From contig CAYZIN010000001.1 in assembly GCA_964478595.1 (NCBI GenBank), positions 4,294-68,293 on the forward strand: a DNA stretch of 64,000 nt, in the 5' to 3' direction. This document shows positions 22,248 through 26,126 of the stretch, piece by piece. Each line of letters starts with the position of its first letter. Position 1 is the stretch's first letter. A model generated the notes under the pieces. The model was not told the origin of the DNA. It searched no databases and was given only the letters and a program-made list of their open reading frames with translations. Position numbers and translations under genes: made by a program. The DNA is from an uncultured Candidatus Saccharibacteria bacterium (lineage in GTDB: Bacteria > Patescibacteriota > Saccharimonadia > UBA4664 > CAZJNH01).

Positions 22248-22302
22248 TCAAGGCTAGTTTTAATTTTGGAGAGCTGTCTGCGCAAAAAAGCCAGCAACAG
22301 AA

Positions 22303-22329
22303 AGCTGCTAACTTTTCTGGTTAGCAGCT
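22303..22329. terminator. bidirectional terminator hairpin between convergent genes
   Basis: Perfect 10-bp inverted repeat AGCTGCTAAC ttttctg GTTAGCAGCT, A-run upstream. Confidence 0.6.
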
Positions 22330-22335
22330 AAGGCG

Positions 22336-22707
22336 TTAAGTTCCTGGAATACCTCGCGTTAAGATGGCTTGACCCTCAGAGTATTTATTGAACTCATCTT
22401 TCTTAATTCTCTCGACATCGCTCCAGTGGTAATCCAGGTCTCTGAACGTGCTTGCAGAAGAGATCCAGTGGCGTTTTTTTGAACCGAAATCAATCAAGTA
22501 TATTTTCCCCGGCGCATCTTCAGTGTCAACAATCTTGAAGTCGATATTCAACTTTTCCCTTGGATACTTAGTTTTAATATCTGTCTCCAGGCCACGTTGT
22601 CTCCTGCTCGAAAGATAATTGGATACGCCCTTAGCGATTACGAACGCTCCCGAAGCAGTGCCTACCATGAAATTGAAATAAATCTGAGAAACATTTAGCC
22701 ATCCCAT
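22336..22707 (-). CDS. hypothetical protein (123 aa), AT-rich
   Basis: ORF only; N-terminal hydrophobic segment. Confidence 0.35.
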   Translation of the reverse strand: MGWLNVSQIYFNFMVGTASGAFVIAKGVSNYLSSRRQRGLETDIKTKYPREKLNIDFKIVDTEDAPGKIYLIDFGSKKRHWISSASTFRDLDYHWSDVERIKKDEFNKYSEGQAILTRGIPGT

Positions 22708-22734
22708 ACCAACAATTATCTCACGACCCGGAAT

Positions 22735-23016
22735 TCACCAGTGATATAACGCCGCGAGTCCGGCGAGTAATCCAGAAATTGCACCGAGGAAATAAGCGAC
22801 TAACCCTGCCGTCAAATAGGGTTTGCGCTTAAGGTTTTGAGCCAAGCTGTTGAACCTCCGGCGCTCTCTAAATTTGTCGAATTGATCAGGGTTGTCGATT
22901 AATTGTTCAACCACTTTATTCGTTCGGTCGTAGTTGATGGCAACAGTTAGCGTGCCAGCCAGTTCGAAGAATGCGGTAAGGCTCAAGAATATTGTAATCA
23001 GTTCTCTTGAAGACAT
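22735..23016 (-). CDS. small two-TM membrane protein (93 aa)
   Basis: ORF with hydrophobic N- and C-terminal helices. Confidence 0.35.
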   Translation of the reverse strand: MSSRELITIFLSLTAFFELAGTLTVAINYDRTNKVVEQLIDNPDQFDKFRERRRFNSLAQNLKRKPYLTAGLVAYFLGAISGLLAGLAALYHW

Positions 23017-23072
23017 TACTTTCTTGGGCGTTTCAGGGTAATGGCGAGAGTGATTAATTCGGTGGCCATGGC

Positions 23073-23441
23073 TTAGTGAGGAAGCTCCAGCCAGACTGTG
23101 GGTTCGTTGGCGATGTCCCAGCCGTCGTGGCCAGGTGGAATGTGGGCTAGGTCGCCGGGGCCGAACTCGAGCTGTTCGCCGGCGTCCATTTTGACCGCCA
23201 TTTTGCCGGAGATCATATAGAGCAAGTGATCGGTTTGGCAGCTGTCGGTTTTAAGTACTGGCTTAAGATCCACCGACCATTTCCAGCCCGGCGCAGCTGT
23301 GACTCGCGTGAACTTTTTGCCGCTAACCTCAACCGTGTCGAGCTTGATCTTCTCCGCTGGATTCACCGACTGATCAGCCTTTTCAAAACTTTTCTTTTCC
23401 AAGATATGCCTCTGTTGAGTTATGACTCCAGTATATCGCAA
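23073..23441 (-). CDS. cupin-domain protein
   Basis: 122 aa; beta-rich sequence with G-x-x-x-H-style segments (PGDLAHIPPGHDGWD) typical of cupin small barrels. Confidence 0.5.
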   Translation of the reverse strand: MRYTGVITQQRHILEKKSFEKADQSVNPAEKIKLDTVEVSGKKFTRVTAAPGWKWSVDLKPVLKTDSCQTDHLLYMISGKMAVKMDAGEQLEFGPGDLAHIPPGHDGWDIANEPTVWLELPH

Positions 23442-23483
23442 AAGAAAAACGAGCCAGTTTTGCGTCTTGGCTCAGGACTTGTT

Positions 23484-23756
23484 CTATTGTCGAACCAGCT
23501 CTTCCTCGCCGACCGTCACGGCTATTCGAACGACCGCGAGGATTTCATCGGTTGGAAGCTTCCTGGTCTCAATGAGGAAGCTGTAGATCCGGCGAGCAGC
23601 TTGGACACGTTCGCCTTCGACAGGATCTTCCCAACCAAGGCAATTGTTACAGCGCTGGGCAGCCACAACTCCAGGACCGATGTCGCTGAACCAGCTGGGT
23701 CGTCGGCAGCGGCACTTGCCAGACGTGCCATCCGGACGAATACTGAGCTTCGCCAT
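23484..23756 (-). CDS. small Cys-containing hypothetical protein (GC-rich patch)
   Basis: 90 aa; CRC...CNNC; GC-rich codons unlike flanking DNA. Confidence 0.35.
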   Translation of the reverse strand: MAKLSIRPDGTSGKCRCRRPSWFSDIGPGVVAAQRCNNCLGWEDPVEGERVQAARRIYSFLIETRKLPTDEILAVVRIAVTVGEEELVRQ

Positions 23757-23771
23757 TCTTCCTCCTTTGGT

Positions 23772-24080: not shown

Positions 24081-24333
24081 TACACTCCTCCCAAGTCACC
24101 GATTCAGTGATTTCTGCGCGCGCAAACACGGAGAGAGATCACCGGAAGCTCCTTTTTTTGTCGATGTGCTTCGCCCAGGCTTAGATCAAAGTGATTTGAT
24201 ACAGGCCCTGGCTGGCCATAAGGGACGTAGTCCAAACTTCTACAGAAGAAATTCCTAGTCCCGAGGACCTTGCTCGCGACATTAAAGAAATTCGCGAGCT
24301 GCTAGACGATAATACCACTCTCGAGGAAGACCA

Positions 24334-24537
24334 GTGATGGCTCGGCATATGAGACGCTCGGGCGGTGGCGAGATGTTTATTGCCATTGTACTTCTGGTCT
24401 GGTGGCATAAAGCGCTTACTTGGGTCGTCTATGGCATGTTGGTAGTCCTGGCATTGGCCGTTGGCTATAAGTTGATGGCTTTTACAAAGAGCAGCCCGCA
24501 AAGTCCAACTTCATCGTGCAGGTATGTCGCAGATTGA
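24334..24537 (+). CDS. small two-TM membrane protein
   Basis: 67 aa; overlaps the start of the Mrr-like gene by 14 nt (translational coupling). Confidence 0.45.
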   Translation: MMARHMRRSGGGEMFIAIVLLVWWHKALTWVVYGMLVVLALAVGYKLMAFTKSSPQSPTSSCRYVAD

Positions 24538-24910
24538 TCAGATGTCGGGTTTAGAGTTTGAAAGGTATGTCGCTCGGCTACTCGCCAGAAGTGGCTACTT
24601 AAACATCAACCTGACTGAAAAATATGATTTCGGGGTCGACATCATAGCCGTGAAAGATGGCATTACTTGGGGCATTCAGGTCAAAAGATGCACCGGCCTA
24701 GTCAGGGCTAAGGCAGTTAGGCAAGTTGTTACCGGCCTAAAGAAATACCGGTGCGATCAAGCGATGGTTATTACCAACGGCTGTTTTAGCCAAGTCGCTC
24801 GGGAGTTGGCAAGAGTTAATGAATGCCAACTGATTGATGGGTCGGTTCTACTGCGAATGCTTCGGCAAAACGCAAAAAGTGAAAGTAGGTTTGAATGTGA
24901 GGCGGTATGA
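24524..24910 (+). CDS. restriction endonuclease (Mrr catalytic-domain-only) family protein
   Basis: 128 aa; GLEFERYVARLLARSGY...DFGVDIIAVKDG...IQVKRC matches the Mrr_cat (PD-(D/E)xK) domain core; lacks the N-terminal DNA-binding domain of full Mrr. Confidence 0.7.
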   Translation: MSQIDQMSGLEFERYVARLLARSGYLNINLTEKYDFGVDIIAVKDGITWGIQVKRCTGLVRAKAVRQVVTGLKKYRCDQAMVITNGCFSQVARELARVNECQLIDGSVLLRMLRQNAKSESRFECEAV

Positions 24911-24911
24911 T

Positions 24912-25532
24912 ATGGGTATGAAGTTTTTCCTCTCTTCCATTCGTCTACCAAACCAAGCTGAACAAACCCAGCTCTTCGAGAGTAAGCCTACCGTTTCAGT
25001 GGCTATAGTACCTAATGCCTGGGACACGTACCCCGATGACAGGCAGAGGGCTGAATTGGTGGCCACCACTGCCCAATTCAAAAAATTAGGTTTCCACACT
25101 TCGATATTAGACATAGTAACCAGCTCAGACAAGCAAAGAGAAGTTAGCCTCAGCTCAAACGACTTTGTGTGGATTATGGGTGGCAATACTTTTTATCTGA
25201 ATTACTGTGTACAAAAAGCCGGATTTGATAAGTTACTTAAAACTGCTCTTGAGAAAGGGTTGGTGTACGGTGGCACAAGCGCGGGGGCAGTTATTGCTGG
25301 GCCAACTTTGCATGGCGTTGAGAATATTGATGACCCAAAGGAGGCACCGCAGGTCATTTGGGACGGACTAGGGTTTGTGGATTTTGGTATTGTGCCTCAT
25401 TGGGGGATGGAGAAATATACTAGCGAACTTGGAAAAATGAAGCAGGAGATGCAACCCCACATAGCTCAAATTGTTACACTCACAAACGAACAGGCTATCA
25501 CTGTAATAGACGGGAAGCAGACAATACGATGA
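24912..25532 (+). CDS. pepE: peptidase E (S51 family dipeptidase)
   Basis: Start chosen at ATG 24912 with GAGG 10 nt upstream (the track ORF begins upstream inside the Mrr gene); GGNTFYL and GTSAGA (GxSAG catalytic Ser) motifs. Confidence 0.7.
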   Translation: MGMKFFLSSIRLPNQAEQTQLFESKPTVSVAIVPNAWDTYPDDRQRAELVATTAQFKKLGFHTSILDIVTSSDKQREVSLSSNDFVWIMGGNTFYLNYCVQKAGFDKLLKTALEKGLVYGGTSAGAVIAGPTLHGVENIDDPKEAPQVIWDGLGFVDFGIVPHWGMEKYTSELGKMKQEMQPHIAQIVTLTNEQAITVIDGKQTIR

Positions 25533-25610
25533 GGTTTATGGTCTAATAGCGGGGAACTATGAAGTTTTTCAATAATGAGCCGATTGGCAACTTAGTCAGG
25601 AATCTCGGAT

Positions 25611-25931
25611 ATGTTAAAACCCAGGGGGTGGTATGAGGTAAAACATGAACAGCTCATAGGTCAAAAGAATGAACTTGAAAGTCGTTTAGGGGGTCTTGGC
25701 GAGGCTCAGGGCGGACTGCTGAAACACCGCCTGGCGGTGCTGGAACTGGCCCAAAAAGCCGGTGAGATCTACCAAAACAGGTCTCCCGAGCAAAAACGAC
25801 TGATAATGTCCAAACTTTTTGCCAGCATGACCATCAAAAGTGGTTTGCTATCTGTTAAATACACAAATCTCGTCAAAATAATCGCGGATAAGGTAACTGA
25901 AACGTATCAAATAATGGAAGTAGCAAAATGA
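25611..25931 (+). pseudogene. possible remnant/C-terminal fragment of a recombinase-like gene next to the tRNA-Gln 3' end
   Basis: 106-aa coiled-coil-like ORF abutting the 3' end of tRNA-Gln; the assignment is from position and weak resemblance only. Confidence 0.2.
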
Positions 25932-26010
25932 GTGTCCAAACTTTCAAAAACGATCACGCAACAGGAGTGAAGAACCAAAAAAAGAGCAAAAATCTGCCCT
26001 TCGTCTTTTC

Positions 26011-26085
26011 TGGCTGGGATGGTAGGATTCGAACCTACGATCTCCTGCTCCAGAGGCAGGCGCCTTACCACTTGGCTACATCCCA
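26011..26085 (-). tRNA. tRNA-Gln (anticodon CUG)
   Basis: Reverse complement TGGGATGTAGCCAAGTGGTAAGGCGCCTGCCTCTGGAGCAGGAGATCGTAGGTTCGAATCCTACCATCCCAGCCA folds as a cloverleaf; anticodon loop CUCUGGA; encoded CCA; close to E. coli tRNA-Gln. Confidence 0.85.
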
Positions 26086-26126
26086 TTATCTAAATTGTAA
26101 CCGAGGTATTTTACCGTATTGATACA

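What the first reader, a model, noticed from the sequence alone, without database searches (positions are those of the whole stretch)
22300..26090. Mosaic accessory island abutting the 3' end of tRNA-Gln: Mrr-catalytic-domain-only nuclease coupled to a tiny membrane protein, peptidase E, recombinase-like remnant
Seen in sequence:
- tRNA-Gln(CUG) lies on the minus strand at 26011..26085, with its 3' end facing a region of alternating composition.
- The adjoining region runs: AT-rich 22.3-23.4 kb, GC-rich 23.45-24.33 kb, AT-rich 24.9-25.95 kb.
- It holds small membrane/unknown ORFs, a cupin and two GC-rich small ORFs.
- A 67-aa two-TM protein is translationally coupled (14-nt overlap) to a 128-aa Mrr_cat/PD-(D/E)xK-type restriction-endonuclease domain protein lacking any DNA-binding N-domain.
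- There is an S51 peptidase E, and a 106-aa ORF abutting the tRNA that looks like a recombinase C-terminal remnant.

Established knowledge:
- tRNA 3' ends are classic integration sites.
- Mrr-like nucleases are type IV restriction / defense components.

Inference:
- This is a decayed integrative element or defense islet.
- The TM-protein + minimal Mrr nuclease pair may be a compact, undescribed defense or abortive-infection module.
Basis: partly seen in the sequence, partly recalled or inferred. Interest (0 to 1): 0.6.

Follow-up and report, generated by a model that had tools for sequence, protein, structure and literature searches.

The report
Decayed mobile element with frameshifted membrane nuclease
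Next to a tRNA-Gln gene lies the worn-down remnant of an integrated mobile element, and its apparent 'tiny membrane protein plus minimal nuclease' pair is one common membrane-anchored Mrr-type nuclease gene split by a single extra T, so it is largely ordinary.

Summary

(1) The 'TM protein + minimal Mrr' pair is one gene. About 90 of the 120 closest homologues are single 166-214-aa proteins with N-terminal hydrophobic helices followed by Mrr_cat. Removing one T from the T4 run at 24480-24483 restores a 190-aa protein that aligns end to end with them.

(2) The 106-aa ORF is the C-terminal tail of a large serine recombinase; the catalytic part is gone.

(3) A close relative (L174; flanking genes 78-93% identical) carries unrelated genes between the cupin and the tRNA-Gln 3' end. 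The island proper is therefore about 23442-26010. The cupin is conserved next to the FMN reductase, and 20922-23072 is a separate insertion.

(4) The same recombinase tail plus an ~80-nt element end abuts tRNA-Trp in another metagenome.

(5) There is no att repeat, but serine recombinases do not make long repeats.

The closest described analogue by architecture is Epona, a single-gene anti-phage system (Mrr_cat plus 2 TM). I also noticed a conserved acidic mini-ORF just upstream of the nuclease gene; its role is unexplained.

The parts
26011..26085 (-). tRNA-Gln(CTG), intact and ending in CCA; its 3' end marks the right boundary of the island
   Evidence: ARAGORN. Rfam tRNA 74.6 bits. Similarity to relative L174 begins exactly at the tRNA 3' end.
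25932..26010 (.). 79-nt non-coding end of the element, between the recombinase stop and the tRNA 3' end; it contains a terminator-like hairpin at 25981-26002 (-) just after the tRNA
   Evidence: It is homologous to the 83 nt between the P0122 stop and tRNA-Trp in L011: global score 7 against -10.7+-4.9 for shuffles, reached by 1 of 2000. It is not similar to the L174 flank. Hairpin.
25611..25931 (+). C-terminal ~100 codons of a large serine recombinase gene (remnant). The Resolvase, Recombinase and Zn-ribbon parts are deleted, and the deletion junction lies at about 25611-25631.
   Evidence: There is no Pfam hit on its own. It is 57% identical to P0122, which aligns to residues 356-470 of 474 and 318-466 of 475 of Resolvase+Recombinase proteins. 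The profile A4 hits 484-610-aa proteins at about residues 315-495, and these carry Resolvase+Recombinase(+Zn_ribbon_recom).
24912..25532 (+). S51-family peptidase gene (206 aa), intact; it starts 1 nt after the nuclease stop codon
   Evidence: Pfam Peptidase_S51 E 6.9e-29. It scores below the PepE and cyanophycinase cutoffs. The gene call in L001 gives the same start. It is 32% identical to the S51 gene near the nuclease homologue in L010.
24337..24910 (+). Membrane-anchored Mrr-type nuclease gene (two hydrophobic helices plus Mrr_cat; 190 codons once repaired), split by a frameshift into ORFs 24337-24537 (N-terminal helices) and 24524-24910 (nuclease domain)
   Evidence: Most homologues are 166-214 aa and fused. 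The repaired product aligns end to end with them. An HMM of the N-terminus alone hits the 67-aa ORF uniquely (E 1.1e-4). Mrr_cat E 6.6e-25. The catalytic residues E13, D39, Q52 and K54 (128-aa numbering) are kept.
24480..24483 (+). T4 run, the most likely site of the 1-nt insertion that causes the frameshift
   Evidence: Deleting one T fuses the two frames into ...GYKLMALQRAARKVQLHRAGMSQID.... The profile alignment of the N-terminal ORF ends at GYKL. The sequence is identical in two independent SRA-run assemblies, L001 and L002.
24200..24337 (+). Open frame of 45 codons that encodes an acidic peptide (...DIKEIRELLDDNTTLEEDQ*). Its stop overlaps the nuclease start (TGATG), and the frame holds no ATG, GTG or TTG.
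   Evidence: It is conserved at protein level with the same position in L177 (score 66 against 22+-4.6 for shuffles, reached by 0 of 2000). Analogous acidic mini-ORFs sit upstream of the nuclease in L006 and L010.
23772..24080 (-). Orphan ORF of 102 aa, GC 0.57; island-specific, function unknown
   Evidence: No hit in Pfam, NCBIfam, PADLOC or PHROGs. Absent from L174 and from all the other fetched loci searched.
23484..23756 (-). Orphan ORF of 90 aa, GC 0.58; island-specific, function unknown
   Evidence: Same evidence as for the 102-aa ORF.
23073..23441 (-). Cupin gene. It is NOT part of the island; it is conserved and marks the left boundary (island starts at about 23442).
   Evidence: It is 78% identical to the L174 cupin, which directly abuts and overlaps FMN_red there.
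20922..23072 (.). A separate window-specific insertion between FMN_red and the cupin: a zinc-ribbon protein of 411 aa, plus ORFs of 123 aa and 93 aa
   Evidence: Absent from L174, where FMN_red and the cupin are adjacent. Zn_Ribbon_1/DZR hits.

Best explanation
The stretch from about 23442 to 26010 is what remains of an integrative mobile element. A large serine recombinase (LSR) placed it immediately downstream of the 3' end of tRNA-Gln(CTG).

The element is now immobile. Its recombinase gene is reduced to the last ~100 codons plus a 79-nt element end.

The surviving cargo is:
- an intact S51 peptidase gene;
- two orphan GC-rich ORFs;
- an acidic mini-ORF;
- one gene for a membrane-anchored Mrr-type PD-(D/E)XK nuclease, made of two N-terminal hydrophobic helices followed by an Mrr_cat domain (190 codons).

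Inferred function of the intact family: a membrane-tethered DNA endonuclease whose catalytic domain faces the cytoplasm. It is carried mainly by mobile elements and most likely serves to exclude or defend against incoming DNA (phage or a rival element). This is by analogy with the validated single-gene system Epona (Mrr_cat plus 2 TM).

In this genome the gene is probably a recent pseudogene. At best it yields an untethered nuclease domain by reinitiation.

Shown: the gene structure, the frameshift, the recombinase remnant, the accessory status relative to one relative, and the second tRNA-abutting copy. Inferred: the integration mechanism, the topology, the defence role and the loss of function.
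For: Single gene:
- 588 homologues were found. About 90 of the best 120 are at least 166 aa, and 90 of the 105 that could be scored have at least one N-terminal hydrophobic helix.
- Deleting one T gives a 190-aa protein that is 47-54% identical, end to end, to 174-202-aa homologues and keeps all 43 invariant residues.
- An HMM built from the N-terminus alone finds the 67-aa ORF as the only significant hit among 1199 six-frame ORFs. E is 1.1e-4, the next best is 0.29, and the alignment ends at the frameshift.
- The 'short' homologue P0041 reads through a full N-terminus in L177.

Nuclease:
- Mrr_cat scores 87.9 bits.
- The AF2 model of homologue P0002 has pLDDT 82.7.
- It matches MspJI (E 8.6e-6) and AF1548/1Y88 (rmsd 2.7 A).

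Topology: mean K+R is 3.0 before helix 1, 1.1 in the loop and 4.5 after helix 2.

Recombinase remnant.

Accessory status:
- In L174 the flanking genes are conserved: DEAD 87%, FMN_red 93%, cupin 78%, DUF1801 80%.
- The interval between the cupin and the tRNA there holds YGGT-like and LemA genes instead.
- Similarity stops at the tRNA 3' end.

Second junction: L011 has a homologous recombinase tail and an 83-nt end abutting tRNA-Trp.

Mobile-element association of the nuclease family:
- It lies next to an XRE HTH, an LSR and a TraG/VirD4-like ATPase in Saccharimonadia loci.
- Relatives occur on 277 plasmids.
- There is a PHROG hit at E 2e-11.

Epona precedent.
Against: - Only one close relative (L174) could be compared, and the neighbourhood as a whole is in flux, with four window-specific blocks and one L174-specific block. 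'Variable region' is therefore better supported than 'one element'.
- No left end or att site was identified.
- Whether the nuclease, the S51 gene and the orphan ORFs arrived together with the recombinase is unknown.
- The LSRs next to nuclease homologues in L006 and L010 are only distantly related to this tail, and they lie on the opposite strand from the nuclease there, not the same strand as here.
- LSRs more typically target sites inside genes than tRNA ends (my own knowledge).
- The nuclease domain shows no decay: 2 deviations at 51 conserved columns, and 33 of 119 homologues have at least as many. Loss of function is therefore not shown.
- The first hydrophobic helix is weak; only 46 of 105 homologues score two helices by hydropathy. 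No dedicated topology predictor was run.
- The defence role rests on analogy. PADLOC gives only domain-level hits, and Epona's sequence could not be compared.
Confidence: 0.72

Rival explanations
1. The split is functional. The 67-aa membrane protein and the 128-aa nuclease are made separately, the second by termination-reinitiation across the 14-nt overlap, and they work together as a two-component module.
For: - The nuclease domain is undecayed.
- The ATG at 24524 sits where several homologues also have a Met (...MTAIDxMTG...).
- The overlap geometry permits coupling.
- The sequence is identical in assemblies of two separate runs.
Against: - The fused form is the rule.
- A single-base change in a homopolymer explains the split.
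- The last 21 residues of the 67-aa ORF (FTKSS...YVAD) are out-of-frame read-through with no counterpart in the family.
- There is no Shine-Dalgarno-like motif before ATG 24524.
- The one short form examined elsewhere is a miscall.
Confidence: 0.1
2. The frameshift is a sequencing or assembly error, and the genome really encodes an intact 190-aa membrane nuclease.
For: The site is a homopolymer, the source is a metagenome-assembled genome, and the domain shows no decay.
Against: - The window and two Logan assemblies from different SRA runs are 100% identical across the site.
- A 4-base run is short for a systematic short-read error (my own knowledge).
- The three assemblies may share source material, so they are not fully independent.
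Confidence: 0.08
3. There was never a single integrative element. The interval is a recombination or indel hotspot that has collected unrelated fragments, and the recombinase tail is one more fragment that lies near the tRNA by chance.
For: - Four window-specific blocks and one L174-specific block lie within 20 kb.
- There is no att repeat and no left end.
- GC is heterogeneous inside the island, from 0.445 to 0.58.
- A distant relative, L014, has yet other genes between its tRNA-Gln and the helicase.
Against: - The homologous recombinase tail and non-coding end sit at nearly the same distance (79 and 83 nt) from the 3' end of a different tRNA in L011.
- Similarity to L174 breaks exactly at the tRNA end.
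Confidence: 0.15
4. The membrane nuclease family has a housekeeping role in these reduced-genome bacteria, for example processing DNA during uptake or salvaging nucleotides, and is not a defence gene.
For: - The family is abundant in Saccharimonadia and related lineages.
- It is membrane-located.
- Some loci place it beside housekeeping genes such as ProRS or photolyase.
- From my own knowledge, these bacteria depend on salvaged nucleotides.
Against: - The domain is predicted to face the cytoplasm.
- The gene is absent from the close relative L174 and is split here.
- Relatives sit on plasmids and near recombinases and TraG-like ATPases.
- A protein with the same domain architecture (Epona) is reported to protect against phages.
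Confidence: 0.1

Closest known systems
Epona, a single-gene anti-phage system from a Vibrio cholerae chromosomal-integron cassette (bioRxiv 10.1101/2024.07.02.601686)
   Same: It is described as an Mrr_cat nuclease domain fused to a segment with 2 transmembrane helices. It is a small, single-gene system carried on a mobile platform.
   Different: - Sequence homology could not be tested, because its sequence and locus tag were not retrievable.
- The authors call the TM part a holin domain, but 12 members of the present family hit no holin model in Pfam at E<=1.
- The hosts differ (Vibrio against Patescibacteria).
- Epona was active only when expressed in E. coli.
E. coli Mrr and MspJI-type type IV (modification-dependent) restriction enzymes
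   Same: The same catalytic domain family: Pfam Mrr_cat at 87.9 bits, the E...D...QxK motif, and structural matches to MspJI and to AF1548/1Y88.
   Different: - There is no N-terminal DNA-recognition domain (Mrr_N winged helix or SRA-like); hydrophobic helices take its place.
- The protein is about 190 aa against roughly 300-450 aa.
- Dependence on DNA modification is unknown.
COG4741 and RmuC: PD-(D/E)XK nucleases with an N-terminal transmembrane helix (Kosinski, Feder and Bujnicki 2005, PMC1189080)
   Same: A minimal PD-(D/E)XK domain of about 120 aa behind an N-terminal membrane anchor. A cytosolic orientation and a guard-against-foreign-DNA role were already proposed for COG4741.
   Different: They belong to a different sequence family (YraN-like E-(V/I)D-E(V/I)K motif, not Mrr_cat) and have one helix rather than two.
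Large serine recombinase integrative elements (phiC31, Bxb1 or TnpX-type integrases)
   Same: The 106-aa ORF is homologous to the region after the zinc ribbon (coiled-coil and tail) of Resolvase+Recombinase+Zn_ribbon_recom proteins of 484-610 aa.
   Different: - Only the tail survives, so there is no catalytic serine domain.
- The element end abuts tRNA 3' ends, a site preference better known for tyrosine integrases (my own knowledge).
'Restriction endonuclease' genes of 210-240 aa on Bacillota and Actinomycetota plasmids (for example WP_250622014.1 on a B. subtilis MOBQ plasmid and WP_220715159.1 on a C. estertheticum plasmid)
   Same: An N-terminal hydrophobic helix followed by Mrr_cat, 30-38% identical to the family, and plasmid-borne next to DNA-transfer or DNA-processing genes.
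   Different: They carry an extra C-terminal zinc ribbon, usually score only one clear helix, and are uncharacterised.

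Membership tests
Mrr_cat (PF04471) PD-(D/E)XK nuclease domain | Profile match above the Pfam gathering score | tested here: met
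   87.9 bits against a cutoff of 21, E 6.6e-25, covering profile positions 1-115 of 115. All 12 members of alignment A1 match.
Mrr_cat (PF04471) PD-(D/E)XK nuclease domain | Catalytic constellation: a Glu on helix 1, an Asp, and the QxK motif | tested here: met
   E13, D39, Q52 and K54 of the 128-aa ORF (E75, D101, Q114 and K116 of the repaired protein) fall in invariant columns of the family. That these are the catalytic positions is from my recollection of Bujnicki and Rychlewski 2001, which is listed in the references of PMC3424549.
Mrr_cat (PF04471) PD-(D/E)XK nuclease domain | Alpha-beta-beta-beta-alpha-beta core fold | tested here: met
   The AF2 model of the 72%-identical homologue P0002 has pLDDT 82.7. 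Foldseek gives MspJI E 8.6e-6 and 1Y88 E 1e-5 with rmsd 2.7 A over 115 columns. The window's own protein was not modelled.
Type IV restriction enzyme of the E. coli Mrr type | N-terminal DNA-binding (Mrr_N, winged helix) domain | tested here: not met
   No such domain is found in the window ORFs or in 12 full-length homologues; the N-terminus is hydrophobic helices.
Type IV restriction enzyme of the E. coli Mrr type | Cleavage that depends on DNA modification | not testable with these tools
   This needs biochemistry.
Epona (single-gene defence system: Mrr_cat plus 2 TM) | One polypeptide with an Mrr_cat domain and two transmembrane helices | tested here: met
   Met for the family and for the repaired window gene. 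In the window itself the gene is split by a frameshift.
Epona (single-gene defence system: Mrr_cat plus 2 TM) | Sequence homology to the Epona protein, including its holin-like segment | not testable with these tools
   Epona's sequence was not retrievable from the paper or its stored supplement. Indirectly, no Pfam holin family is hit at E<=1.
Epona (single-gene defence system: Mrr_cat plus 2 TM) | Protection against phage infection | not testable with these tools
   This needs a phage challenge experiment.
Large serine recombinase | N-terminal Resolvase catalytic domain, Recombinase domain and zinc ribbon | tested here: not met
   The 106-aa ORF has no Pfam hit. Only 78 nt separate it from the S51 stop codon, which leaves no room for these domains.
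Large serine recombinase | Homology of the C-terminal coiled-coil and tail region | tested here: met
   It is therefore a remnant of a family member, not a functional member.
tRNA-associated genomic island or integrative element | Absent from, or replaced in, close relatives, with the breakpoint at the tRNA 3' end | tested here: met
   Met against L174, but that is the only close relative available.
tRNA-associated genomic island or integrative element | Integrase gene beside the tRNA | tested here: inconclusive
   Only a recombinase tail is present. It is of the serine type, not the tyrosine type. The same layout occurs at tRNA-Trp in L011.
tRNA-associated genomic island or integrative element | Direct repeat of the tRNA 3' end at the far boundary | tested here: not met
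   There is none in the 64 kb. No exact k-mer of at least 13 nt recurs, k=12 gives 2 hits against 1.2 expected, and nothing matches with up to 3 mismatches. Such a repeat is not expected for serine recombinases (my own knowledge).
tRNA-associated genomic island or integrative element | Atypical base composition | tested here: inconclusive
   The island as a whole has GC 0.489 against 0.503 for the window. Its parts range from 0.445 to 0.58, all within about 2 SD.
Dipeptidase E (PepE, NF003642) | Score above the NCBIfam equivalog cutoff | tested here: not met
   54.8 bits against a cutoff of 156; only the broader S51 family (PF03575) is met.
Known defence systems in PADLOC-DB v2 | Full-length match to a system protein | tested here: not met
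   There are only domain-level matches, to the C-terminal nuclease parts of ZorD, PDC-S02 and mREase_IV models of 324-1171 positions.

The most novel reading that the evidence does not exclude
The real two-part unit may be a small, strongly acidic protein together with the membrane-anchored Mrr nuclease. The acidic protein has net charge -7 to -9, is encoded immediately upstream, and has a stop codon that overlaps or abuts the nuclease start. It would act as an inhibitor, immunity factor or DNA mimic, giving an undescribed toxin/immunity-like or defence pair that is widespread on mobile elements of Patescibacteria.

In two loci this mini-ORF is conserved at protein level yet has no ATG, GTG or TTG start, which would imply non-canonical initiation.

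Separately, this lineage of large serine recombinases may target the 3' ends of several different tRNA genes.
Probability: 0.15. Interest if true: 0.55.

Novelty: new member of a known kind. Interest (0 to 1): 0.3.

Why it matters
Short overlapping ORF pairs should therefore be checked against homologue lengths before being called modules.

Three smaller points remain:
- Membrane-anchored Mrr_cat nucleases are abundant in Saccharimonadia and on Gram-positive plasmids. They are annotated only as 'restriction endonuclease', and they share their architecture with one recently validated anti-phage gene, Epona. They may therefore be a widespread, unstudied class of membrane-tethered defence nucleases.
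- A conserved acidic mini-ORF precedes the gene in several lineages.
- A lineage of large serine recombinases appears beside the 3' ends of two different tRNA genes.

Each point rests on few loci.

Tried and rejected
- **Genome-collection scan, DEAD-box helicase as anchor.** Only L014 (67% identical) and L015 (53%) were related, and L014's gene content is unrelated apart from a tRNA-Gln about 6 kb from the helicase.
- **Metagenome scan, S9-type hydrolase as anchor.** It was swamped by generic alpha/beta-hydrolase motifs and gave no relatives above 29% identity. Both single-use scans were therefore largely wasted.
- **Exact-protein lookups of the DUF1801 and zinc-ribbon ORFs.** They found nothing. 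For DUF1801 the recorded protein (P0123, 127 aa) starts at a later Met, so the query did not match it; the cause for the zinc-ribbon ORF is unknown.
- **Direct comparison of the 106-aa ORF with recombinases from L010 and L006.** The results were nil and weak (E 0.007). The link needed the intermediate P0122 and a profile search.
- **Small ORFs flanking the nuclease in L003, L006 and L010.** None has a counterpart in the window by tblastn.
- **Acidic mini-ORFs across the two sequence groups.** They are not significantly similar, so I did not claim a single family.
- **The 411-aa proteins of the window and of L010.** They are unrelated, so I rejected synteny between them.
- **Viral-contig scan with the family alignment.** It gave only 6 distant loci (31-39% identity), so I rejected 'mainly phage-borne'.
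- **Epona's sequence or locus tag.** It could not be retrieved.
- **Programmed frameshifting.** I considered it and set it aside, because the T4 context GCU-UUU-ACA matches no slippery motif I know of. It was not tested.
- **Rfam.** It found only the three tRNAs.
- **Promoter and terminator scans.** They were at chance level, apart from the hairpin after the tRNA.

Full report
**1. The observation**

ARAGORN and Rfam both place tRNA-Gln(CTG) at 26011-26085 on the minus strand, so its 3' end faces lower coordinates. The 67-aa ORF (GTG 24334 / ATG 24337 to 24537) and the 128-aa ORF (24524-24910) overlap by 14 nt.

Family searches gave the following:
- The 128-aa product hits Mrr_cat at E 6.6e-25, the next gene hits Peptidase_S51 at E 6.9e-29, and 23073-23441(-) hits cupin_3 at E 7.8e-7.
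- The S51 gene most likely starts at ATG 24912, one base after the nuclease stop.
- That gene scores far below the PepE cutoff, 54.8 against 156 bits, so 'peptidase E' is too specific.

The composition swings are real but small. 300-nt windows across the 64 kb have mean GC 0.503 and sd 0.040. The two 'GC-rich' ORFs are at 0.57-0.58, and the S51 gene and recombinase tail are at 0.445-0.456.

**2. The 'TM protein + minimal Mrr' pair is one gene with a frameshift**

A database search with the 128-aa protein returned 588 homologues. About 90 of the best 120 are 166-214 aa long, roughly 60 residues longer than the query. Their extra N-terminal part is basic-hydrophobic-WxH(K/R)-hydrophobic-basic, which is also the pattern of the 67-aa ORF.

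Four results support a single gene:
- Removing one T from the T4 run at 24480-24483 joins the two frames into a 190-aa protein. That protein aligns end to end with 174-202-aa homologues at 47-54% identity and keeps all 43 invariant residues.
- I built an HMM from only the pre-nuclease columns of 68 full-length homologues and searched all 1,199 six-frame ORFs of the window. The 67-aa ORF is the only significant hit (E 1.1e-4; the next best is 0.29). The alignment runs from profile position 1 to ...GYKL, which is exactly where the frames diverge.
- The last 21 residues of the 67-aa ORF therefore have no counterpart in the family.
- Short forms do occur in the database, but the one I could inspect on a long contig (P0041, 118 aa) is a gene-calling artefact. 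In L177 the frame reads through a full N-terminus.

The extra T is present in the window and in two Logan assemblies from different SRA runs, which match the window with no mismatch. An assembly error is therefore unlikely, though read-level data were not available.

The nuclease domain is not degraded. It has 2 deviations (K123R, R168G) at 51 columns that are at least 90% conserved, and 33 of 119 homologues have as many or more. The frameshift is therefore recent, or the downstream ORF is still in use. No Shine-Dalgarno-like motif precedes ATG 24524, whereas GAGGA precedes ATG 24337.

**3. What the family is**

The AF2 model of the closest intact homologue (P0002, 72% identical; 68-sequence alignment) has pLDDT 82.7. 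It shows two helices (residues 9-26 and 28-68) followed by an alpha-beta-beta-beta-alpha-beta-alpha-beta core. Foldseek matches the core to MspJI (E 8.6e-6) and to AF1548/1Y88 (E 1e-5, rmsd 2.7 A). The Glu, Asp and QxK positions are invariant.

Lys and Arg cluster before helix 1 (mean 3.0) and after helix 2 (mean 4.5), with 1.1 in the loop. By the positive-inside rule this places both termini, and so the nuclease, in the cytoplasm. The first helix is only weakly hydrophobic (46 of 105 homologues score two helices), so this topology is an inference.

PADLOC gives only domain-level hits, to the nuclease ends of ZorD, PDC-S02 and mREase_IV.

**4. Genomic company of the family**

- In Saccharimonadia loci the intact gene lies within a few kb of an XRE-type HTH gene, a ~475-aa large serine recombinase and a ~800-aa TraG/VirD4-like ATPase (L006, L007, L010). 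Alternatively it lies near the HTH and the ATPase, with ProRS in between (L003, L008).
- Distant relatives (30-38% identical) occur on 277 PLSDB plasmids, mostly Priestia, Staphylococcus, Streptomyces and Bacillus. In 35 of them the match covers the hydrophobic N-terminus.
- Two examples are 239-aa and 211-aa 'restriction endonuclease' genes with an added C-terminal zinc ribbon. One sits between a topoisomerase gene and a DUF6012 gene on a MOBQ plasmid.
- A PHROG of 192 positions matches at E 2e-11, but only 6 distant loci turned up among viral contigs.

**5. Literature**

- The closest described thing is Epona, a cassette of the Vibrio cholerae chromosomal integron that protects E. coli against phages. 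[quoted passage not shown]
- I could not retrieve its sequence, so only the architecture can be compared. No holin model is hit by 12 family members.
- Membrane-anchored minimal PD-(D/E)XK nucleases of another family (COG4741) were predicted in 2005 to face the cytosol and perhaps guard against foreign DNA (PMC1189080).

**6. The 106-aa ORF**

On its own it hits no Pfam, NCBIfam, PADLOC or PHROGs model, and it has one database relative, P0122 (176 aa, 57% identity). P0122 aligns to residues 356-470 of 474 and 318-466 of 475 of Resolvase+Recombinase proteins (E 3e-17 and 4e-10).

An exhaustive HMMER search with the two-sequence profile found 765 proteins. The long ones (484-610 aa) match at about residues 315-495. 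Six that I scanned carry Resolvase and Recombinase domains, two of them also Zn_ribbon_recom.

The ORF is therefore the tail of a large serine recombinase. Homology starts at about residue 8, and only 78 nt separate it from the S51 stop, so the catalytic two-thirds have been deleted.

**7. Is it an island at the tRNA?**

No copy of the tRNA end exists anywhere in the 64 kb, exact or with up to 3 mismatches. For a serine recombinase this says little, because strand exchange occurs at a 2-bp core (established knowledge).

The useful comparison is L174 (GCA_964547425.1), reached through the DUF1801 gene beside the tRNA. It shares the following, in the same order and orientation:

| Gene | Amino-acid identity |
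|---|---|
| Formyl_trans | 70% |
| Response regulator | 66% |
| DEAD helicase | 87% |
| FMN_red | 93% |
| Cupin | 78% |
| tRNA-Gln(CTG) | 83% (nucleotide identity) |
| DUF1801 | 80% |
| Membrane protein | 71% |
| hyp137 | 84% |
| SOD | 75% |

Three points follow from this comparison:
- Between the cupin and the tRNA, L174 has a YGGT-like gene and a LemA gene (1.4 kb). The window has 2.6 kb of unrelated sequence there. Nucleotide similarity ends at the tRNA 3' end.
- In L174 the cupin abuts FMN_red, so the cupin is not island cargo. The stretch 20922-23072 (zinc-ribbon protein and two small ORFs) is a separate insertion.
- Two further window-specific blocks (16606-18110 and 26940-33626) and one L174-specific block show that the whole neighbourhood is in flux.

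Independent support for a tRNA-linked element comes from L011. There the P0122 recombinase fragment converges on tRNA-Trp with an 83-nt gap, against 79 nt in the window. The two non-coding gaps are homologous to each other (score 7 against -10.7+-4.9 for shuffles, reached by 1 of 2000) but not to the L174 flank.

**8. A lead noticed on the way**

The 45 codons before the nuclease start are open and encode an acidic peptide (...DIKEIRELLDDNTTLEEDQ*). Its stop overlaps the start (TGATG).
- L177 has a clearly homologous peptide in the same place (score 66 against 22+-4.6 for shuffles, reached by 0 of 2000), and many of the nucleotide differences are synonymous third-position changes. Neither frame holds an ATG, GTG or TTG.
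- L006 and L010 carry a second, mutually homologous type of acidic mini-ORF at the same position.
- The two types are not significantly similar to each other, but all four peptides have net charge -7 to -9.
- L003 and L008 have a different, non-acidic upstream ORF.

This could be a partner protein of the nuclease. The evidence is four loci and no function.

**9. Verdict**

The inference of a decayed integrative element is reasonable and now better grounded. The proposal of a new two-gene TM-plus-nuclease module is not supported. The locus is a new, damaged member of known kinds: a serine-recombinase element remnant and a membrane-anchored Mrr_cat nuclease of the Epona-like architecture.

The source organism is probably a member of the Saccharimonadia (Patescibacteria). 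This is judged from the named nearest homologues and was not verified with marker genes.

Noticed in passing
window 24200-24337 (+); also L177 about 4655-4770, L006 5778-5999, L010 about 5903-6001: A conserved, strongly acidic mini-ORF (net charge -7 to -9) lies immediately upstream of the membrane Mrr nuclease gene, and its stop overlaps or abuts the nuclease start. In the window and in L177 it is conserved at protein level but has no ATG, GTG or TTG start. It may be a partner or inhibitor of the nuclease.
   Followed up: partly
L011 1100-2220 (JGI 3300045733 contig Ga0485837_0001115): This is a second decayed copy of the same recombinase lineage. A 154-aa ORF overlaps the 176-aa tail fragment P0122, and both converge on tRNA-Trp(CCA) 83 nt away. 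The 154-aa ORF has no Pfam hit.
   Followed up: partly
window 20922-23072: This is a window-specific insertion between FMN_red and the cupin, which are adjacent and overlapping in relative L174. It carries a 411-aa protein with two N-terminal zinc ribbons, a predicted membrane segment and a coiled-coil C-terminus, plus two small ORFs with no family hits.
   Followed up: no
window 26940-33626: This 6.7-kb window-specific block lies between a membrane protein and hyp137, which are adjacent in L174. It encodes an S9-like hydrolase, an acyltransferase_3, a Big_5 plus C39-like peptidase, a YGGT-like protein, a secretory lipase and an SH3 protein. The YGGT-like gene resembles (54%) the one that sits beside tRNA-Gln in L174.
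   Followed up: no
window 26127-26519 (DUF1801): The protein beside the tRNA is 69-73% identical to DUF1801 proteins labelled Ktedonobacterales, Chloroflexi and Actinomycetota. That is nearly as close as its best relative in the syntenic genome (81%), which suggests recent horizontal transfer across phyla.
   Followed up: no
L001 = window 22488-26040: The independent Logan contig from SRR9179562 ends 30 nt inside tRNA-Gln, and at its other end it stops inside the 123-aa ORF. Such assembly breaks might reflect strain variation at the island borders, or just low coverage.
   Followed up: no
L014 3854-11170 (JBBDZL010000027.1): A distant Patescibacteria relative also has tRNA-Gln(CTG) about 6 kb upstream of the DEAD-box helicase, in the same orientation but with different genes between them. 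These include a GIY-YIG mini-gene directly after the tRNA and an S51-like peptidase.
   Followed up: partly
L006 6566-6769 and L010 6558-6782: A conserved 67-74-aa gene (MTGY.PTDE..., ending in an acidic tail) follows the membrane nuclease gene in two Saccharimonadia loci. The window has the S51 peptidase at that position instead.
   Followed up: no
window 25981-26002 (-): A terminator-like hairpin followed by a T run lies directly after the tRNA-Gln 3' end, inside the 79-nt stretch that is conserved with the tRNA-Trp junction of L011. The element end may therefore supply the tRNA's terminator.
   Followed up: no
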